Virus record (IMG/VR): IMGVR_UViG_3300032291_002769
Coordinates: 1-56,244 of that record
Direction: 5' to 3' (one strand)
Source of the DNA: a virus
Lineage: Duplodnaviria > Caudoviricetes
Length of the DNA: 56,244 nucleotides
Of the stretch, positions 6,496 through 30,809 are shown piece by piece; within the stretch, counting starts at the first letter, position 1, and the number at the start of each line of letters is the position of its first letter. Under the pieces are notes generated by a model. It searched no databases and was not told where the DNA came from. It was given only the letters and a program-made list of their open reading frames with translations. The translations under genes were made by a program, and so were the position numbers.

Positions 6496-6879
6496 TTAAT
6501 CGTTAATAAAAACACATTTGTCAAACTCATAAACTTGTCCCGATCTTGATGATATTACAACTAATTCAATATTATAACCAATAATGTTTAATTTTTCTGA
6601 TTTAAAGTTTTTACCTATTCCTATCACTTTTAAATCAAATGGTGGGTCAAATACTATCCCTTGTCTATATGATATTCTTTTAACTGTGTCAGTCCAGGTT
6701 GATAATCCGTATTTTCCATTATACCTAAACTTTCTACCAACAAATCTTGGAATATCAAAACTTTCATCTTCAACATCTGTTGATAATGGGTTTTTCTCAC
6801 CGGTTAATTCTTCATAATACGGATTAAGTTCTCCGGTGTATGGGTCGTGTGTTGGTATATTATTTGCCGAATTTTCCAT
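6496..6879 (-). CDS. hypothetical protein
   Basis: ORF in tightly packed operon; DPYTGELNPYYEELTG motif. Confidence 0.65.
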   Translation of the reverse strand: MENSANNIPTHDPYTGELNPYYEELTGEKNPLSTDVEDESFDIPRFVGRKFRYNGKYGLSTWTDTVKRISYRQGIVFDPPFDLKVIGIGKNFKSEKLNIIGYNIELVVISSRSGQVYEFDKCVFIND

Positions 6880-7054
6880 TAAATAATGCTTTCATTTGGT
6901 TCATTAGTTGAACTTGTCTTGTTTCCAATTCTTTAACTTTTTTCTTTTCTTCCTCATTTAGTTCAAAACTATTCGCTTTAATATCTGCTATCTCATTTTG
7001 AACTCTTCTATGTTCATTTAACATAGATTCATAAATCATTCTCTTATCGTTCAT
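6860..7054 (-). CDS. hypothetical coiled-coil protein
   Basis: ORF in operon. Confidence 0.65.
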   Translation of the reverse strand: MNDKRMIYESMLNEHRRVQNEIADIKANSFELNEEEKKKVKELETRQVQLMNQMKALFNGKFGK

Positions 7055-7301
7055 TTTTTACTATTGCTTTTGTAAGTTGGTTTATCAGTCCTTGAACCTC
7101 TCCAAATTCGTGGAATCTTACAATTGGATCCGTATTAAAAACATCAACATACCAATTGTCTTCCTTTATTTCTTCATTGACTGGTGTAATAAAAGTTAAA
7201 CCATCAACGATATCAAGTACATAGTAATAAGACTCATCATCATCGTGTTCTCTGATTTCTTCACTTTTAAAACCTAAAAGTATTAATTCTCTTTCTGTCA
7301 T
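7044..7301 (-). CDS. hypothetical protein
   Basis: ORF in operon. Confidence 0.65.
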   Translation of the reverse strand: MTERELILLGFKSEEIREHDDDESYYYVLDIVDGLTFITPVNEEIKEDNWYVDVFNTDPIVRFHEFGEVQGLINQLTKAIVKNER

Positions 7302-7302
7302 A

Positions 7303-7566
7303 TTACTTTGTTTCTATAATGTTATAAGTTCCTTCAACTAATCCCCAAGATGACTCTTCTTGAAATTGATATGTCTGTGCCACATCGTTTGAATCCATTG
7401 GTCTTGTTAAATACCAAACTTGGGTTTCTTTCCAAGTTACATTAACTAACTTACGACCTTTTGGTAGGTTAATTGTTCCTTCTCCACCCCAGGCTTTAAC
7501 TCTTTCATTTTCCGTACAGGATGTTACCATAACACCCATCATAATCGCTAAAAATACTTTTTTCAT
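7303..7566 (-). CDS. putative lipoprotein
   Basis: MKK, hydrophobic stretch and VTSC lipobox; KLVNVTWK...WYLTRPM motif. Confidence 0.75.
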   Translation of the reverse strand: MKKVFLAIMMGVMVTSCTENERVKAWGGEGTINLPKGRKLVNVTWKETQVWYLTRPMDSNDVAQTYQFQEESSWGLVEGTYNIIETK

Positions 7567-7817
7567 TTTATTAATTTTACTTTTTTTACTTCACCGTTTT
7601 TATCTGTTTTATATTTTATTCTTGCCGTGTCAACAATAATCCTATAATCATCATCCAAATCCAAACAAACCCAGTCACAAGTTTCGTGGTAATATAAATG
7701 GACGTGAATCTTTTCATTTTTTTTACACCTTAAATATGTAAATTCTTTATATTGCCAGTTAGAACAACTAACTAATAACATAATCAAAAATATACAGATA
7801 ATATTTTTCATAATCAA
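7563..7817 (-). CDS. putative lipoprotein
   Basis: LLVSC lipobox after hydrophobic signal. Confidence 0.6.
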   Translation of the reverse strand: MIMKNIICIFLIMLLVSCSNWQYKEFTYLRCKKNEKIHVHLYYHETCDWVCLDLDDDYRIIVDTARIKYKTDKNGEVKKVKLIK

Positions 7818-8074
7818 ATTTCTCTTGAGGTTAATTCTTTAAGTGCTTCGTCAACAATCTTCATATATTTTTCTTGTTTTTTTTTATGGTAAAGATATAA
7901 TAAAAAACAAATTGGATATACAATTAAAAAGCTAACAACAAAATTAAAAATTAATAATATAGATTGTATTAATCCAATAATTACTAACACCATAGATGAA
8001 TAAAAATGTTTATCAGCAATTGCGAGGTTTTTGTATGCTAAGGATAGTAATTCACTATCAGTTAAATTCTTCAT
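7814..8074 (-). CDS. hypothetical two-TM protein
   Basis: central hydrophobic stretch. Confidence 0.6.
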   Translation of the reverse strand: MKNLTDSELLSLAYKNLAIADKHFYSSMVLVIIGLIQSILLIFNFVVSFLIVYPICFLLYLYHKKKQEKYMKIVDEALKELTSREI

Positions 8075-8313
8075 TCTAATTCTTTTGATTTAACACTTTG
8101 GTGTTTGTTATAAAATCTCATTAATGTTGTTACCAGTTCAGGTATGTTATCAAATGCCCATCTTTCAGTTTCAATAACATAAAAATCACCACCACCACCA
8201 TTTTCTGTTTTGATTGTTAAATATTGACCGTCACTAGAATCACAACAATCGGGATCTTGTGTAAATGTCATTTTAAATTGTTGTGACAACAAATATGTTT
8301 TTCTATCTTCCAT
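8071..8313 (-). CDS. hypothetical protein
   Basis: GGGDFYVIETERWAFD motif; start moved to ATG at 8313, downstream of promoter. Confidence 0.7.
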   Translation of the reverse strand: MEDRKTYLLSQQFKMTFTQDPDCCDSSDGQYLTIKTENGGGGDFYVIETERWAFDNIPELVTTLMRFYNKHQSVKSKELE

Positions 8314-8328
8314 TTGTTTTATTTTCAA

Positions 8329-8359
8329 CAAAAATAAATATTTTTTTTTAATTACACAA
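8329..8359 (-). promoter_or_regulatory. Bacteroidota-type sigma-A promoter
   Basis: TTG, N20, TATTTTTG (8336-8329). Confidence 0.55.
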
Positions 8360-8573
8360 GTGTTATAATAATTTTTCCTGGATTTAAAAAATCTTCTTGG
8401 TATGTCATATTGTAATCATCAACACATTCTTTGACAACAATTTTCATTTGATTACTAATGCCGGTAATTATTGAAACTTCTTTTTGTTTCTTTTGCATAT
8501 TTTCCCAAATAAATTGGTCCAATATTTTTTTAACTTCGGAATGTTTAATCCCGTGAAGATCCAACTGTTTCAT
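8352..8573 (-). CDS. stand-alone Smr domain protein
   Basis: LDLHG...IITG...NPG motifs. Confidence 0.8.
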   Translation of the reverse strand: MKQLDLHGIKHSEVKKILDQFIWENMQKKQKEVSIITGISNQMKIVVKECVDDYNMTYQEDFLNPGKIIITLV

Positions 8574-8748
8574 AAACAACTATTTGATTTGTGAATATAT
8601 TTACATCCACATTGTGTTTACCAAGGTTATAAGTTGTGTAAGTCCCATCTAAATTATTAATTCTTAACATAAGAAAACCTAAATCAGAAACATAAATCTT
8701 TTCAACTTCACCAACACCTTTTGGTGTTAAAACTTTAACATTATTCAT
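8545..8748 (-). CDS. hypothetical protein
   Basis: ORF in operon. Confidence 0.6.
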   Translation of the reverse strand: MNNVKVLTPKGVGEVEKIYVSDLGFLMLRINNLDGTYTTYNLGKHNVDVNIFTNQIVVYETVGSSRD

Positions 8749-10897: not shown

Positions 10898-13150
10898 TTA
10901 TGGAACAATAAATAATCCATTTGTTGCTGGATCTCTCCAAACTGAACCAGTTGGTAAACCAGCTGAACTTGTTGGTATATTCATAATTGAAAGATTATTT
11001 ACAAACGTAGCACACTGTCTATTAGAGGTTATATCAGAACCAACTATAAATGAAAGACAATCATTAACAGAATTGTTTTTACCACCTAAAATACCAGATT
11101 TTGATCTTGTAATTTTATTACATTCACCACCAGAAATAACTGAATAACCACCATAAACAGTATTTTGGAACCCAGCACCAATTAAATTAAAAGCACCATT
11201 TAAAGTTGTATTACAATAACCACCAACAATAACATCAGCACTATTTGTTGTATTAAATATACCAGCACCAATGAACGCAAAGGCACCTCCTTGATTAGTT
11301 GTATTGTATATACCACTACCAATAATACTATTGTCGGATCTATTTAAATTACTTGAGCCACCTACTATTGCCGCACCACAACCGATTGCAGTGTTTGAAC
11401 ACCCACCAATAACAGAAGAATGAGGACCACTAAGATAGTTAAGTTCACCACCTAAAATTGATGCAAAATTACCAAGTTCAACAAGATTATTTCTTCCATC
11501 AACAATTGATGAATAACAACCAGAAACCGTATTACATAGACCAGCACCAATAAAGGATCTTGTTTTTGTTATTAAATTACATTCCCCAGCACCAATAAAA
11601 CTTTGACTGGCGGTAGAACCAGATATCTTATTATTATACCCGCTACCAACAAAACCATAATCTGCGGATAATATTTGGTTTTGCCAACCACCAGTAATGA
11701 CAGAATAATTAGCAATTGCAAAATTAAATTGTCCATTACCAACAAATGAGTGTAGTGAGTTTGCGGTATTACGATACCCACCAACCACTGTTGAGTAGCA
11801 CCCACTTGCTGTGTTTTGTCTTCCACCATTTATTGCTGAAGCTTGACCTACCGCTGTGTTACATAGCCCACCATTTACTGTTGAATGAGTATTAGATGCT
11901 GAATTACGACATCCACCGGCTACAGTAGAAAAGTTAGCACCATTTGCTCTGTTGCAAACACCACCACCAACAGTATTTCCGAATTGTGTGGCTTGGTTGC
12001 AATATCCACCACTCACTGTTGACCATTGCCCATCTGCAGAGTTGTTAAGCCCACATCTTAGAGTTGATCCTGTGCCGTTACCAACAATGATAATACCAGA
12101 CCCACCAGTTGCCCCAGTAAAAAATCCGGATGCGGTAACTATTGACCCATTACTATTGTTTAAACTTAAAACTCCAGTTCCAGAATTGTATGAGGCACCA
12201 GTTAATAATACATCTGTAAATCCAGTTAAAAAACCAGACACATTAAATGTATTTCCAGAATTTGTTGTGAATGTTGCAACACCGGTATTAGAATTATATG
12301 TTCCACCAGTAACTGTCATATCGGATGATAAAATTCCTAAATTAACCGTATAATCATTACCATCACTAACAGATGCTGTTAAATCAAAATTTCCAGGATT
12401 CCAAGTAAGACCTGTTAAATAATAGTCAGTTCCACCAGTGTATAAGCCATTTATTGTAACTGTCCCATCTTGTCTTTCCAAAGTAATAGTGCCATTAGAG
12501 TATGTACCACCAGTTACATAAAAATCATCTGTTTGGAAACCAGAAGCATTTAATGTATTACCATTAGAATTTGTTAATGTTAATACTCCAGTTCCGTTAT
12601 TGTATGTTAATCCAGAAACAAAAATATCTGTTGTTGTAACACCGGTTACAACAAATCCAGATGAATCTAAACCAAGGTTTATTACTGGACTTCCGTTTCC
12701 AACATTTCTAATGTTAAGGTTTGGAACATATGCCGTATCTGAAGCTGTTGCTGTAATGTTTCTTCCAGCTAAGATAGAAGAATAAGAACCAGTTACTTTA
12801 TTATTACAACCACCTAATATGGAACTAAAAATACCACTAACTGTGTTGTTATTTCCTCCATTTATAACACCATAATCACCTGTTGATAGTATTTTATTAA
12901 ATCTACCACCACCGATAATTGTTGCATATCCATCGGTTGTATTTGCATTACCACCGCCGATTGTGGAATAAGAAGTTAATCCACTTGTGATTGTATTTTT
13001 ATATCCGCCACTAACTGTTGTGTATGTGTTTCTAACTACATTACCTCTACCACCACTAACTGTAGCGTAGTTTGCTGGTGCTGTGTTACAGTTTCCACAT
13101 CTAACTGTTGAAGTTGGAAATCCAGGATTATCGATAATTACAAAAGCCAT
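10898..13150 (-). CDS. Gly/Asn/Ser-rich repeat protein, probable virion fibre or structural protein
   Basis: dozens of ~15-aa S-x-I-x-GG-x-x-N repeats, five VTGGTYN..G..T repeats, C-terminal PTSSAGLPTGSVW. Confidence 0.75.
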   Translation of the reverse strand: MAFVIIDNPGFPTSTVRCGNCNTAPANYATVSGGRGNVVRNTYTTVSGGYKNTITSGLTSYSTIGGGNANTTDGYATIIGGGRFNKILSTGDYGVINGGNNNTVSGIFSSILGGCNNKVTGSYSSILAGRNITATASDTAYVPNLNIRNVGNGSPVINLGLDSSGFVVTGVTTTDIFVSGLTYNNGTGVLTLTNSNGNTLNASGFQTDDFYVTGGTYSNGTITLERQDGTVTINGLYTGGTDYYLTGLTWNPGNFDLTASVSDGNDYTVNLGILSSDMTVTGGTYNSNTGVATFTTNSGNTFNVSGFLTGFTDVLLTGASYNSGTGVLSLNNSNGSIVTASGFFTGATGGSGIIIVGNGTGSTLRCGLNNSADGQWSTVSGGYCNQATQFGNTVGGGVCNRANGANFSTVAGGCRNSASNTHSTVNGGLCNTAVGQASAINGGRQNTASGCYSTVVGGYRNTANSLHSFVGNGQFNFAIANYSVITGGWQNQILSADYGFVGSGYNNKISGSTASQSFIGAGECNLITKTRSFIGAGLCNTVSGCYSSIVDGRNNLVELGNFASILGGELNYLSGPHSSVIGGCSNTAIGCGAAIVGGSSNLNRSDNSIIGSGIYNTTNQGGAFAFIGAGIFNTTNSADVIVGGYCNTTLNGAFNLIGAGFQNTVYGGYSVISGGECNKITRSKSGILGGKNNSVNDCLSFIVGSDITSNRQCATFVNNLSIMNIPTSSAGLPTGSVWRDPATNGLFIVP

Positions 13151-13216: not shown

Positions 13217-13252
13217 AAAAAAACCCCAAAACTTTTTATGGTCTTGGGGTTC
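13217..13252 (-). terminator. intrinsic terminator
   Basis: AACCCCAAGAC/GTTTTGGGGTT hairpin followed by U7. Confidence 0.8.
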
Positions 13253-13412
13253 AAAGGTAATAGTAATATAATTTTCAGTGTTTTTTAAGAGTTTTAAATT
13301 TTGACAAAATGATTTTTGAACATTTGACTTTTGAATGTTAAGAGCATCATCAAATCTACAATCGTGATCAAGAATTTTGTATTATGTTGAAAATATATAC
13401 TATACTACCTTT
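13253..13412 (-). ncRNA. candidate structured RNA: 24-bp closing stem around a loop with ~7-nt UCAAAA-like repeats
   Basis: 13412-13388 pairs with 13277-13253; no ORF; lies between the 13414 stop codon and the terminator. Confidence 0.65.
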
Positions 13413-13413
13413 A

Positions 13414-13860
13414 TTACAATCCTTCGATTTCTGTTGTAATATTATGATAATCCAACTCCTCTTGTAACTCTTCGATTCTATTTTCTAAAAACTTAATCTC
13501 ATTGTCTCTCTCTACTGTTGAGATTTCAGCGATTTTAACAATTGGTGTATCACTTCTTCTTGATAAATAATCAATAGCAACACCACTTGTACAATCCAAA
13601 AATTTTAATTTATTAACTGCTGATTTCAACTCAGATAAAAGAAAAATTTTATCATAAACTGGTGCGTTTGCTTTATGAATTTGAGTTTTAATTGCTGTTA
13701 ACTCATCAATTCTTACATACATTTCTGCTAACAATTCTTTTGCCGAATAATCTCTTGTGTTACCCTCAATAACTGAATTGTTATTATGTAACTTTTCTGT
13801 AAGTTTATTCAAATCTTGAACCAACTTATTTTTTAATTTTAATGCTTGCTTTACTGTCAT
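13414..13860 (-). CDS. DIP1984-like (septicolysin-annotated) coiled-coil protein
   Basis: MTVKQALKLKNKL, IHKANA and IEELQEELDYHNITTEI patterns. Confidence 0.7.
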   Translation of the reverse strand: MTVKQALKLKNKLVQDLNKLTEKLHNNNSVIEGNTRDYSAKELLAEMYVRIDELTAIKTQIHKANAPVYDKIFLLSELKSAVNKLKFLDCTSGVAIDYLSRRSDTPIVKIAEISTVERDNEIKFLENRIEELQEELDYHNITTEIEGL

Positions 13861-13899
13861 AATTATTTGTTTTGTGCTGAAATTATAATTTATTTATTT

Positions 13900-14241
13900 T
13901 TAATAGTCAATGTTTTCTGTTAAACAAATTTCAGTTTCCGCTAACTCACTATAAACCCAAATGTCCCAACCTAACCCGCCGGTTGATTTAAACTTATATT
14001 CAAAGTTACCATACTTACCATAAACACCTTTAATATGTCCCATCCAATTATTTAACACTTCAACTTCATTTGGTTGAATTGTAAATGTCATAGGTTTTAA
14101 TGTTTCACTAACTTCTGTTTTTTCTTGGTATTTTTTTGCAACTTCTTCACTTGTGAAATATGATAAATTCACAACTCTTTCTTTCATTTTTGAAAGCCTT
14201 TCATTTTCTTTTTCAATAATTCGTTCTTCAAATTTGCTCAT
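13900..14241 (-). CDS. hypothetical protein
   Basis: YKFKSTGGLG motif. Confidence 0.65.
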   Translation of the reverse strand: MSKFEERIIEKENERLSKMKERVVNLSYFTSEEVAKKYQEKTEVSETLKPMTFTIQPNEVEVLNNWMGHIKGVYGKYGNFEYKFKSTGGLGWDIWVYSELAETEICLTENIDY

Positions 14242-30515: not shown

Positions 30516-30521
30516 ACAAAT

Positions 30522-30528
30522 ATAAATA
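30522..30528 (-). promoter_or_regulatory. putative late promoter TATTTAT
   Basis: 6 nt upstream of ATG at 30515. Confidence 0.55.
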
Positions 30529-30560
30529 CTTAAAACTTTACAAATAATATAATGGTTTGA

Positions 30561-30567
30561 TATTTAT
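30561..30567 (+). promoter_or_regulatory. putative late promoter TATTTAT
   Basis: upstream of the small ORF at 30600. Confidence 0.55.
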
Positions 30568-30599
30568 AATCAAATAAACATTCAAAAAAACAATTTATT

Positions 30600-30743
30600 A
30601 TGGGATGTGGATGTAAAAACAAAGGAAACCAAGCTGCAACTCCTCAACAAGCGCCCCAACAAGCGCAAAAACCTGCGGTTCAAAACCAAACGGTTCAAGA
30701 GTCAGTTAAAAAAGTAATTGAAAAATATTACAACAAAAAATAA
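30600..30743 (+). CDS. 47-aa MGCGCK peptide (not in ORF track)
   Basis: own promoter and terminator; MGCGCKNKGNQAATPQQAPQQAQKPAVQNQTVQESVKKVIEKYYNKK. Confidence 0.75.
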   Translation: MGCGCKNKGNQAATPQQAPQQAQKPAVQNQTVQESVKKVIEKYYNKK

Positions 30744-30765
30744 TTTCCTTTGGCCAAAGAAAAAC

Positions 30766-30796
30766 AAAAGGTGGGAGTAATTTTCCACCTTTTTTT
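30766..30796 (+). terminator. intrinsic terminator
   Basis: AAAAGGTGGGA/TTCCACCTTTT hairpin with U-tract. Confidence 0.75.
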
Positions 30797-30797
30797 A

Positions 30798-30804
30798 TAT
30801 TTAT
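30798..30804 (+). promoter_or_regulatory. putative late promoter TATTTAT
   Basis: 5 nt upstream of ATG at 30810. Confidence 0.55.
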
Positions 30805-30809
30805 AAAAT

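What the first reader, a model, noticed from the sequence alone, without database searches (positions are those of the whole stretch)
13217..13860. DIP1984-like coiled-coil gene followed by a stem-closed RNA carrying ~7-nt repeats: candidate new protein-RNA system
Seen in sequence: on the minus strand, 1 nt after the stop of 13414-13860, AAAGGUAGUAUAGUAUAUAUUUUCA (13412-13388) pairs with UGAAAAUUAUAUUACUAUUACCUUU (13277-13253). This gives 24 bp with two G-U pairs and two single-nt bulges, closing a 110-nt loop. The 3' half of the loop is a run of about eight 7-8-nt units (uUAACAU, UCAAAAG, UCAAAUG, uUCAAAAA, UCAUUUUG, UCAAAAU, UUAAAAC, UCUUAAAA). A strong terminator follows immediately. The ~200-nt stretch is ORF-free in an otherwise gap-free genome, and the G-U pairs favour an RNA-level, minus-strand structure. 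Recognised from memory: the protein resembles the all-helical DIP1984/septicolysin-annotated family of unknown function. Inference: the stem could be an RNase III-type processing or stabilising helix releasing a discrete RNA whose periodic loop is bound one repeat per subunit by an oligomer of the upstream protein (TRAP/Hfq-like geometry). This could be a two-component RNP, an RNA antitoxin or a protein sponge.
Basis: partly seen in the sequence, partly recalled or inferred. Interest (0 to 1): 0.85.

Follow-up and report, generated by a model that had tools for sequence, protein, structure and literature searches.

The report
Conserved RNA partner of DIP1984-like genes
A small helical protein gene of unknown function in this phage is followed directly by a conserved folded non-coding RNA carrying seven-base repeats, and similar gene-plus-RNA pairs occur in many phages, plasmids and bacteria, which points to an undescribed protein-RNA unit.

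Summary
Gene 13414-13860(-) has the DIP1984/DUF6847 fold. It is followed at once by a ~160-nt RNA domain (13254-13411, -) and an intrinsic terminator.

A covariance model built without the window matches this domain (45 bits). The same model finds one copy directly after the homologous gene in 90 of 100 distinct phage and metagenome loci, and nowhere else in them.

The closing stem differs in sequence between loci but always pairs (own arms -22.6 kcal/mol, foreign arms -13.7). G-U outnumbers A-C 78 to 13, which places the RNA on the gene strand. The loop carries a conserved core and a real 7-nt periodic U(C/U)AA array. Neighbouring genes differ between loci, so only gene and RNA travel together.

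Canonical DIP1984 genes in bacteria and on plasmids carry a different downstream RNA. It has the same build: covarying long-range stems around an invariant GGCGR/YGA loop, and 7-nt periodicity.

Neither RNA matches Rfam 15. No paper in the library names the protein family's function. Binding of protein to RNA is inferred, not shown. A homodimer is predicted. Expression could not be tested. Best reading: a new self-contained protein-RNA module, function unknown.

The parts
13882..13910 (-). sigma-70-type promoter-like site (TTGACT, 17 nt, TATAAT; 11 of 12) just upstream of the gene
   Evidence: Consensus scan only. The likely hosts are Bacteroidota (record titles). By my own recall Bacteroidota use another promoter consensus, so this is a lead, not a finding.
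13414..13860 (-). 148-aa DIP1984/DUF6847-like protein gene, all-helical with one beta hairpin
   Evidence: ORF. Pfam PF20935 29.3 bits. NF038048 35.7 bits, below its cut-off. Fold match to 3kdq. Homodimer predicted.
13254..13411 (-). structured RNA domain: full-length match (positions 1-193) to covariance model R2
   Evidence: 45 bits, E 3.6e-4. It is the only match in the window on either strand. The window was not among the 46 sequences the model was built from.
13388..13412 (-). 5' arm of closing stem P1, starting 2 nt after the stop codon
13278..13387 (-). 110-nt loop enclosed by P1: variable 5' part, GAU-rich conserved part, then the repeat array
13285..13341 (-). array of seven U(C/U)AA units spaced 7, 7, 8, 15, 7 and 9 nt
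   Evidence: The 7-nt lag is enriched at z = 22.6 over 79 loops.
13289..13298 (-). most conserved 3' motif of the core (UUUAAAACUC; family consensus UuAAAAcUC)
   Evidence: Invariant or nearly invariant columns.
13253..13277 (-). 3' arm of closing stem P1
13221..13252 (-). intrinsic terminator (12-pair stem, 8-nt loop, U-run) abutting P1

Best explanation
The gene and the RNA form one self-contained transcription unit: promoter, DIP1984-like ORF, structured RNA, terminator. This unit moves as a module between phages.

The RNA is the 3' end of the protein's own mRNA. It folds into a long closing helix that begins at the stop codon. The helix encloses a mostly single-stranded conserved core, which ends in a 7-nt periodic array of U(C/U)AA units and an invariant AAAACUC motif.

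The most likely working is a ribonucleoprotein. The helical protein, predicted to be a homodimer, binds its cis-encoded RNA, and several copies are probably laid along the heptad array. The closing helix fixes the ends and protects the RNA. Because terminating ribosomes must melt the base of the helix, folding of the RNA, loading of the protein and further translation of the gene are probably coupled.

What is shown: the RNA's conservation, structure, strand, periodicity and exclusive linkage to the gene. What is inferred: co-transcription, binding, stoichiometry and feedback. The cellular role of the particle is unknown.
For: 1. Linkage.
- Model R2 finds one match in each of 90 of 100 distinct sources, always on the gene strand directly after the homologous gene. 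No other match at E <= 1 occurs in 433,518 bases read on both strands. 44 of the 54 sources not used to build the model matched.
- With filters off, 6 more sources match at the same place, with E from 2.6e-9 to 0.49.
- The model start lies within -6 to +15 nt of the stop codon in 81 of 87 loci.
- Two whole bacterial genomes each hold exactly one significant copy, at the known locus.
- Homologues at 30-37% identity in two huge-phage records also have the RNA (42 and 32 bits).

2. Only gene and RNA travel together.
- The window's neighbours recur only in 4 to 16 close relatives.
- Elsewhere the neighbours are unrelated: phosphoesterase, M48 peptidase, methylase, glycosyltransferase, KilA-N and others.

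3. Structure.
- Own arms fold at -22.6 kcal/mol, against -13.7 with foreign 3' arms and -14.4 when shuffled. Own is lower than the mean of its foreign partners in 71 of 72.
- 87.1% of cells are paired against 58.5% in shuffles. The covariation score is 0.41 against 0.12 (0 of 500 shuffles reach it) and 0.04-0.06 when partners are slid.
- 22 of the 24 best covarying column pairs are model pairs.

4. Strand. In P1 there are 773 Watson-Crick, 78 G-U and 13 A-C cells of 920.

5. Periodicity.

6. Protein.
- Homodimer prediction: ipSAE 0.62, best of 3 controls 0.01. The runs agree in at least 95% of contacts and the partner's pLDDT is at least 89. The mark was reached by 20 of 30 proteins solved as pairs of one chain and by 1 of 23 solved as single chains. 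These counts hold only roughly with my own alignment. The relative 3kdq is deposited with several chains, so the pass may be from memory.
- An invariant basic N-terminal helix (K4, Q5, K8, K10, N11) lies outside the predicted interface.

7. The pairing is family-wide. Canonical DIP1984 genes carry their own downstream structured RNA with lag-7 periodicity (z = 6.6).
Against: - There is no direct evidence that protein and RNA touch.
- The protein has no recognised RNA-binding domain or fold relative apart from 3kdq.
- The repeated word differs between lineages (UCAA or UUAA in phages; CACA, UACA or GUAU types in bacteria). A single fixed sequence-specific contact would not predict this.
- The start at the stop codon could reflect only the tight packing of phage genomes.
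- R2 does not match the canonical RNAs, so homology of the two RNA types is not shown.
- The covariation counts were made on alignments fitted to the model, which leans towards the structure. The energy test does not have that bias.
Confidence: 0.55

Rival explanations
1. The element is a purely cis-acting 3' untranslated element of the mRNA. The long helix next to the stop codon would act as a stabiliser or as an RNase III-type retroregulation site that sets the level of the protein. No stable particle forms.
For: The stem starts at the stop codon in 81 of 87 loci. It is followed by a terminator, or by a U-run directly after the 3' arm. There is no room for a separate promoter, so it is part of the mRNA.
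Against: A stabiliser or cleavage site needs only a helix. Here a 78-position core inside the loop is conserved in sequence: 76 of 101 loci at E < 1e-3. The core has a 7-nt periodic array. In L063 and L066 an extra small ORF sits between gene and RNA, and the RNA then follows that ORF's stop.
Confidence: 0.2
2. The RNA is an independent trans-acting RNA that only shares the transcript with the gene. It could be a decoy or sponge for a host RNA-binding protein, nuclease or tRNA-handling enzyme. The protein would be unrelated or only a helper.
For: There is a single-stranded array of short repeated words, as in sponge RNAs. The bacterial versions include a hairpin that reads like a tRNA T-arm (L136, L137-L140, L128).
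Against: The RNA was never found away from a DIP1984-like gene in the sequence searched. Two very different RNA versions are both tied to the same protein family, which argues for a functional tie to the protein.
Confidence: 0.12
3. The pair is a toxin-antitoxin-like system in which the RNA neutralises the protein (type III-like logic).
For: It is a compact two-part module. It is mobile between phages and sits on small Acinetobacter plasmids (370 plasmid records).
Against: The protein is not a ToxN/AbiQ-type nuclease and matches no PADLOC model above noise. The repeats are 7 nt, not about 35 nt (length recalled). The RNA lies after the gene, not before it. Chromosomal copies sit among housekeeping genes such as holC, ilvD and redoxin.
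Confidence: 0.08
4. The element works as DNA: an inverted repeat flanking iterons, such as a replication origin or a recombination site.
For: A long inverted repeat encloses short direct repeats.
Against: G-U pairs outnumber A-C 78 to 13. All matches lie on the gene strand. Minus-strand hits are absent or near E = 1. The element is always wedged between a stop codon and a terminator.
Confidence: 0.03

Closest known systems
Ro60 (Rsr) with Y RNA / YrlA modules of bacteria and phages (recalled, not from a call)
   Same: A protein gene has a neighbouring non-coding RNA whose 5' and 3' ends form a long closing stem. The bacterial DIP1984-linked RNAs even contain a T-arm-like hairpin.
   Different: The protein is a 148-aa helical dimer, not a Ro/TROVE ring. 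The RNA is fused to the mRNA's 3' end. No Rfam model matches. There is a heptad repeat array.
Type III toxin-antitoxin systems (ToxIN, AbiQ-antiQ; recalled)
   Same: A two-part protein plus repeat-RNA module on mobile elements.
   Different: Repeat unit of 7 nt instead of about 35 nt. The RNA is downstream of the gene instead of upstream. The protein fold is unrelated. No PADLOC match.
TRAP and HutP, oligomers that read short words repeated along single-stranded RNA (recalled; HutP reads triplets with 4-nt spacers, which is a 7-nt period)
   Same: A short conserved word is repeated with fixed spacing in unpaired RNA.
   Different: Those sites lie in 5' leaders of regulated operons, and the proteins are beta-rich rings. 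Here the array is inside a closed loop after the protein's own gene. The protein is helical and only a dimer is predicted.
TnpB/IscB with omega RNA (recalled)
   Same: The partner RNA is made from the 3' end of the protein's own transcript.
   Different: No nuclease domain, no transposon ends, no guide segment recognised, and a much smaller protein.
Lambda sib retroregulation by RNase III (recalled)
   Same: A long helix just 3' of a phage gene could control the mRNA from its 3' end.
   Different: sib needs no conserved loop. Here the loop holds the most conserved sequence.

Membership tests
DIP1984 / DUF6847 protein family | Pfam PF20935 match at or above the gathering score | tested here: met
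   29.3 bits against 27. Residues 11-144 cover profile positions 2-140 of 141.
DIP1984 / DUF6847 protein family | NCBIfam NF038048 match at or above its cut-off of 70 bits | tested here: not met
   35.7 bits, E 8.9e-9. The phage clade is a divergent branch. PF20935 did not ring in the Arcicella genome that holds a phage-type copy.
DIP1984 / DUF6847 protein family | Fold of the solved member 3kdq | tested here: met
   Foldseek TM 0.75-0.81, E 5e-4. VIA-align Z 12.8, rmsd 2.8, 141 of 152 aligned, next row Z 9.1.
Any Rfam 15 RNA family | cmscan match at the family's gathering score | tested here: not met
   0 matches in the window. Only sub-threshold, terminator-driven rows around the element. 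0 at the element in five further phage-type loci. 0 at E <= 0.01 in seven canonical loci.
Type III toxin-antitoxin | Toxin of the ToxN/AbiQ endoribonuclease kind | tested here: not met
   Helical DIP1984 fold. No Pfam or PADLOC match of that kind.
Type III toxin-antitoxin | Antitoxin is a tandem array of about 35-nt repeats upstream of the toxin gene | tested here: not met
   7-nt units lie downstream of the gene, inside a closed loop. The repeat length of the family is recalled.
Type III toxin-antitoxin | Protein toxic without the RNA | not testable with these tools
   Needs expression in a laboratory strain.
TRAP/HutP-like repeat readers | Short word repeated at fixed spacing in unpaired RNA | tested here: met
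   U(C/U)AA occurs 6.29 times per loop against 2.66 in shuffles. Spacing of 7 nt is 40% against 3%. Lag-7 z = 22.6.
TRAP/HutP-like repeat readers | Ring-shaped oligomer with one site per subunit | tested here: inconclusive
   Only two copies were folded, and a symmetric dimer is supported. Higher oligomers were not tested.
Ro60 - Y RNA | Ro/TROVE protein encoded nearby | tested here: not met
   None among the window's neighbours or the neighbours of 12 other loci scanned with Pfam.
Kink-turn (for the GGCGR/YGA loop of the bacterial RNAs) | Three-base bulge followed by tandem G-A pairs in register with both helices | tested here: inconclusive
   The sequence resembles the motif. By hand the non-bulged strand has one base too many. 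No 3D test was possible.

The most novel reading that the evidence does not exclude
The whole DIP1984/DUF6847 family, in phages, plasmids and at least three bacterial phyla, is the protein half of an old and unrecognised ribonucleoprotein. Each gene would make its own partner RNA from the 3' end of its mRNA. Protein dimers would assemble along a heptad-periodic single-stranded track, about 7 nt per unit, between clamped ends. That would give a particle of fixed length, a bacterial counterpart of measured nucleocapsid-like assemblies. The repeated word would co-evolve with the protein in each lineage.
Probability: 0.3. Interest if true: 0.92.

Novelty: categorically new. Interest (0 to 1): 0.85.

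Why it matters
The protein family is widespread. It appears on 370 plasmid records, mostly small Acinetobacter plasmids where it is labelled 'septicolysin' and listed as a putative virulence factor without evidence. It also appears in scattered bacterial chromosomes and many uncultured phages. No function is known for it.

An obligate, structured partner RNA gives the first concrete handle on what the family does. It also argues against the cytolysin label.

The work adds one RNA family, perhaps two related ones, that are absent from Rfam. They have strong covariation and an unusual feature: a heptad-periodic unpaired array inside a clamped loop.

It also offers a clean test case for how a phage accessory module couples translation termination to the folding of an RNA.

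Tried and rejected
- **Known RNA genes.** Rfam at gathering score and at permissive E-values found nothing at the element. ARAGORN found no tRNA or tmRNA in the window.
- **Solved structures by sequence.** Nothing with the single protein or with the profile.
- **PHROGs.** Only unknown-function families.
- **PADLOC.** Only coiled-coil noise.
- **ESM Atlas.** Viral 'hypothetical protein' clusters, plus one 'putative Septicolysin' cluster.
- **Alignment by sequence alone.** RNAalifold on the MAFFT alignment of 62 phage-type RNAs gave 0 pairs, because the arms share no sequence and were misaligned. I replaced this with an arm-swap energy test and model-based alignment.
- **Conserved partner gene.** None found.
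- **Homology of the two RNA types.** R2 did not match canonical loci.
- **GGAU/UGAA internal loop.** I first thought it general in the phage clade. Only 16 of 79 loci have UGAA and 9 of 79 have GGAU at that place, and the window has neither, so I dropped it.
- **Kink-turn reading of GGCGR/YGA.** It does not fit in register by hand.
- **Extra helices in the loop core.** No pair outside the model stood out apart from weak, mostly G-U candidates.
- **Sequencing runs.** No RNA holder listed.
- **The search of earlier findings.** Closed.
- **Papers.**
  - 'DUF6847', 'DIP1984', 'PF20935' and 'NF038048' have 0 occurrences in the library. '3KDQ' occurs once in each of two papers on unrelated topics. 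'DIP1984 family' occurs once, in an Acinetobacter surveillance paper (search listings only).
  - I read passages of PMC5559437 and of PMC10690425.
  - PMC10690425 lists 8,495 unnamed candidate RNAs from IMG/VR in supplementary tables that I could not open. This RNA may be among them.
  - The preprint 10.64898/2026.09.22.753630 holds none of six search words.
- **Third covariance model.** A model for the canonical RNA was not attempted, because its length would exceed the calibration limit.

Full report
**What the window is.** The window is the whole record: one phage-like contig of 56,244 bases with about 30% G+C. In a simple tiling, 79 of 90 ORFs lie on the minus strand and about 95% of the contig is coding. 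Its nearest DNA relatives in GenBank phages are uncultured huge phages, and only over short stretches.

**The observation.** On the minus strand the ORF 13860-13414 ends in UAA. Two bases later a 25-nt arm (13412-13388) begins. It pairs with 13277-13253 and closes a 110-nt loop, and a terminator hairpin with a U-run follows (13252-13221).
- The fold is far better than shuffles: -43.6 against -28.6 kcal/mol, z = -4.0, 0 of 200 as good.
- The 263-nt non-coding stretch is the second largest gap of the contig. The largest lies between divergent genes.

**The protein.** It is a divergent member of the DIP1984/DUF6847 family.
- Pfam PF20935 scores just above its threshold.
- NCBIfam DIP1984_fam gives E 9e-9 but is below its cut-off.
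- A confident model (pLDDT 89.9; four helices and a beta hairpin) matches only PDB 3kdq over its whole length.
- Sequence searches of the PDB find nothing.

**Relatives collected.** I gathered homologues from three collections:
- 20 viral loci
- 19 loci in species genomes, mostly freshwater Bacteroidota MAGs plus the isolate Arcicella aurantiaca DSM 22214
- 80 metagenome loci, the best of 147.

Of these 119 loci plus the window, 8 had fewer than 200 nt after the gene. 101 were distinct over the first 200 nt downstream. All 20 viral loci already showed a 200-300 nt non-coding stretch after the stop. Its end-to-end stem differed in sequence between loci, while the interior was recognisably conserved.

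**The core is conserved in sequence.** A profile of the interior (78 positions, three nhmmer rounds) is found downstream of the gene in 76 of 101 loci at E < 1e-3 and in 88 of 101 at E <= 10. The consensus runs GAU...GAU..UGAU, then U(C/U)AA words including two nearly invariant UUCAA, and ends in UuAAAAcUC.

**The closing stem covaries.** The arms share no sequence, so MAFFT misaligned them and RNAalifold found nothing. I therefore tested pairing directly.
- For 72 loci the first 45 nt after the stop fold with their own 3' region at -22.6 kcal/mol on average.
- With the 3' region of loci whose arms differ, the mean is -13.7. With shuffled 3' regions it is -14.4.
- Own is lower than the mean of its foreign partners in 71 of 72 loci (Wilcoxon p 2e-13).

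A covariance model built from nine sequences of one subgroup (R1) aligned most other subgroups full-length. On that alignment:
- 87.1% of cells pair, against 58.5% in shuffles.
- All 23 stem pairs show changes on both sides.
- The covariation score is 0.41, against 0.12 for shuffles (0 of 500 reach it) and 0.04-0.06 for slid partners.

These counts lean towards the structure, because the alignment was fitted to it. The energy test does not.

In an open scan of all column pairs of a 79-sequence alignment, 22 of the 24 best pairs are model pairs, and 21 of them lie in the closing stem. No further helix of comparable support appears in the core. The core is therefore probably unpaired or held by contacts other than Watson-Crick helices.

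**Strand.** In the stem, 773 cells are Watson-Crick, 78 are G-U and 13 are A-C, of 920 in all. This is the signature of an RNA made from the gene strand, and it argues against a DNA-level inverted repeat.

**Specificity of the linkage.** A second model (R2) was built from 46 full-length matches, without the window.
- It gives 90 matches in 100 distinct sources. There is one per source, each on the gene strand directly after the gene. Nothing else reaches E <= 1 in 433,518 bases.
- The window scores 45 bits (E 3.6e-4) over 13254-13411, full length.
- With filters off, L119 (not among the 100) and five of the ten missed loci also match at the right place. L025, L039, L092, L096 and L097 do not.
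- The model starts within -6 to +15 nt of the stop in 81 of 87 loci.
- In L063 and L066 a small ORF with two CxxC pairs lies between gene and RNA, and the RNA starts 6 nt after that ORF's stop.
- In whole genomes, two Bacteroidota MAGs each have one significant match, at the known locus. The Arcicella-type variants score only marginally.
- The only GenBank phage records with a homologue (30% and 37% identity, both uncultured huge phages) also carry the RNA.

**A module, not an operon.** The window's neighbours are a tail-fibre-like repeat protein, a 113-aa and a 183-aa protein, a HAD-like hydrolase and an AAA ATPase. They recur only in close relatives, 4 to 16 loci each. In 12 more distant loci the flanking genes are unrelated to each other. 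Where the upstream gene is divergent (L006, L023, L026), the pair must have its own promoter. In the window a strong sigma-70-type consensus lies at 13910-13882 (consensus only).

**The repeats.**
- U(C/U)AA occurs 6.29 times per loop, against 2.66 in shuffles.
- 40% of spacings are 7 nt (3% in shuffles) and 57% are 7-9 nt (9%).
- Runs of four or more evenly spaced units occur in 43 of 79 loops, against 0.1% of shuffles.
- Three-letter autocorrelation peaks at lags 7, 8 and 14, with z = 22.6, 12.9 and 19.5. Related sequences inflate these z values.

**The protein as a dimer.** Two copies folded with the family alignment give ipSAE 0.62 against 0.01 for the best of three controls. The runs agree in at least 95% of contacts, and the partner's pLDDT is at least 89. 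The mark was reached by 20 of 30 proteins solved as pairs of one chain and by 1 of 23 solved as single chains. These counts hold only roughly with my own alignment.

A relative (3kdq) is deposited with several chains, so the pass may be from memory. Many invariant residues (N28, R36, K58, H62, Y69) lie in the predicted interface. The invariant basic N-terminal helix (K4, Q5, K8, K10, N11) does not, which makes it a candidate nucleic-acid face. That last point is inference.

**The wider family.** I then asked whether canonical DIP1984 genes also have a partner RNA. Family searches found canonical genes in:
- 2 of 401 genomes of the phylum of the Arcicella genome (PF20935)
- 10 of 401, over the cut-off, in the phylum of the genome holding L036 (title 'Aquiluna', so Actinomycetota by my own knowledge). 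One of the ten, and one weaker hit, are in unpublished genomes that I did not read.
- 4 of 401 in the phylum of the genome holding L029 ('Polynucleobacter', so Pseudomonadota)
- 370 plasmid records, 341 of them Acinetobacter.

I examined 16 loci: L128, L129, L132, L133, L136-L140, L142-L144 and L149-L152. I left out L141 and L147 (unpublished), L145 and L148 (a split gene) and L146 (partial).

Fifteen of the 16 show a non-coding stretch of about 200 nt after the stop with shared features. L144 does not. The features are:
- Two covarying helices flank an invariant asymmetric loop, GGCG(A/U) on the 5' side and N-GA on the 3' side about 110-165 nt further on.
- A strict search for this arrangement, requiring 10 or 11 of 11 flanking pairs, succeeds in 11 of 16 loci against 0.3% of 800 shuffles. 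The flanking sequences differ in nearly every lineage.
- On a sequence-only alignment of 11 of these RNAs the 12 pairs of the two helices are 86-95% paired, and 11 of the 12 change on both sides. The covariation score, counted over all 16 pairs of the given structure, is 0.667 against 0.307 for shuffles (0 of 500) and 0.07-0.21 when slid. The structure was derived from the same sequences.
- Many of them also have a hairpin that reads like a tRNA T-arm and a strongly conserved G-rich motif near the 3' end.
- The 75 nt before the 3' helix again show lag-7 periodicity (0.056 against 0.018, z = 6.6, n = 10) with lineage-specific words.

None of this matches Rfam. R2 does not match these RNAs. The phage and bacterial RNAs therefore share position, clamp, periodic tract and a conserved 3' motif, but common descent is not shown.

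**Bacterial context.** Chromosomal copies sit among housekeeping genes such as holC, redoxin, ilvD and a methyladenine glycosylase. This does not look like a defence island. PADLOC has no model for the protein.

**What is known.** No paper in the searchable library mentions DUF6847, DIP1984, PF20935 or NF038048 by those names. 'Septicolysin' appears only as an inherited label for the Acinetobacter plasmid gene, treated as a putative virulence factor without experiments (passage read in PMC5559437). A survey of IMG/VR lists 8,495 unnamed candidate RNAs in supplements that I could not open (passages read in PMC10690425), so an unnamed overlap cannot be excluded.

**Verdict.** The element is real, conserved, structured, transcribed-strand specific, and bound genomically to one protein family in two forms.
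- Most likely working: a ribonucleoprotein assembled from one transcript (0.55).
- Main rival: a purely cis-acting 3' element (0.2).
- What the particle does is open.
- Expression could not be tested.

Noticed in passing
L128:1187-1398 and 1930-2260: In one Bacteroidota genome the canonical DIP1984 gene lies directly after tRNA-Gly and tRNA-Val genes. Its downstream RNA contains a hairpin that reads like a tRNA T-arm. The same kind of hairpin occurs in L136-L140.
   Followed up: partly
L063:1940-2128 (also L066): A small ORF of about 60 residues with two CxxC pairs sits between the DIP1984-like gene and the RNA. The RNA then starts 6 nt after this ORF's stop.
   Followed up: partly
L131:1990-2075: In a 595-kb uncultured phage a 28-residue lysine-rich ORF lies between the gene and the RNA. 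The repeated word there is UUAAAAG rather than UCAA.
   Followed up: no
window 6860-8748 (-): There is a run of eight small tandem ORFs of 64-87 aa, head to tail on the minus strand. At a 90-aa threshold this region looks like a 2-kb gap.
   Followed up: no
window 10898-13150 (-): A 750-aa Gly/Asn/Thr/Ser-rich repeat protein lies just downstream of the module. It has only a weak match to a beta-roll ice-binding repeat. It is conserved in position only in close relatives. It looks like a tail fibre or spike.
   Followed up: partly
window 30516-30809: This is the largest intergenic gap of the contig (294 nt). It lies between divergently oriented gene blocks and is probably a control region.
   Followed up: no
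L149:2156-2578 and L150:1040-1489: In two genomes of the Polynucleobacter-centred phylum sample, the canonical DIP1984 gene is next to holC (DNA polymerase III chi). holC lies downstream in one genome and upstream in the other.
   Followed up: no
L021, L023, L024, L026, L028, L030, L035, L037 (about 160-190 nt after the gene stop): In these Bacteroidota loci the 3' arm of the closing stem is itself followed by a run of U, with no separate terminator hairpin. The long-range stem may double as the terminator.
   Followed up: no
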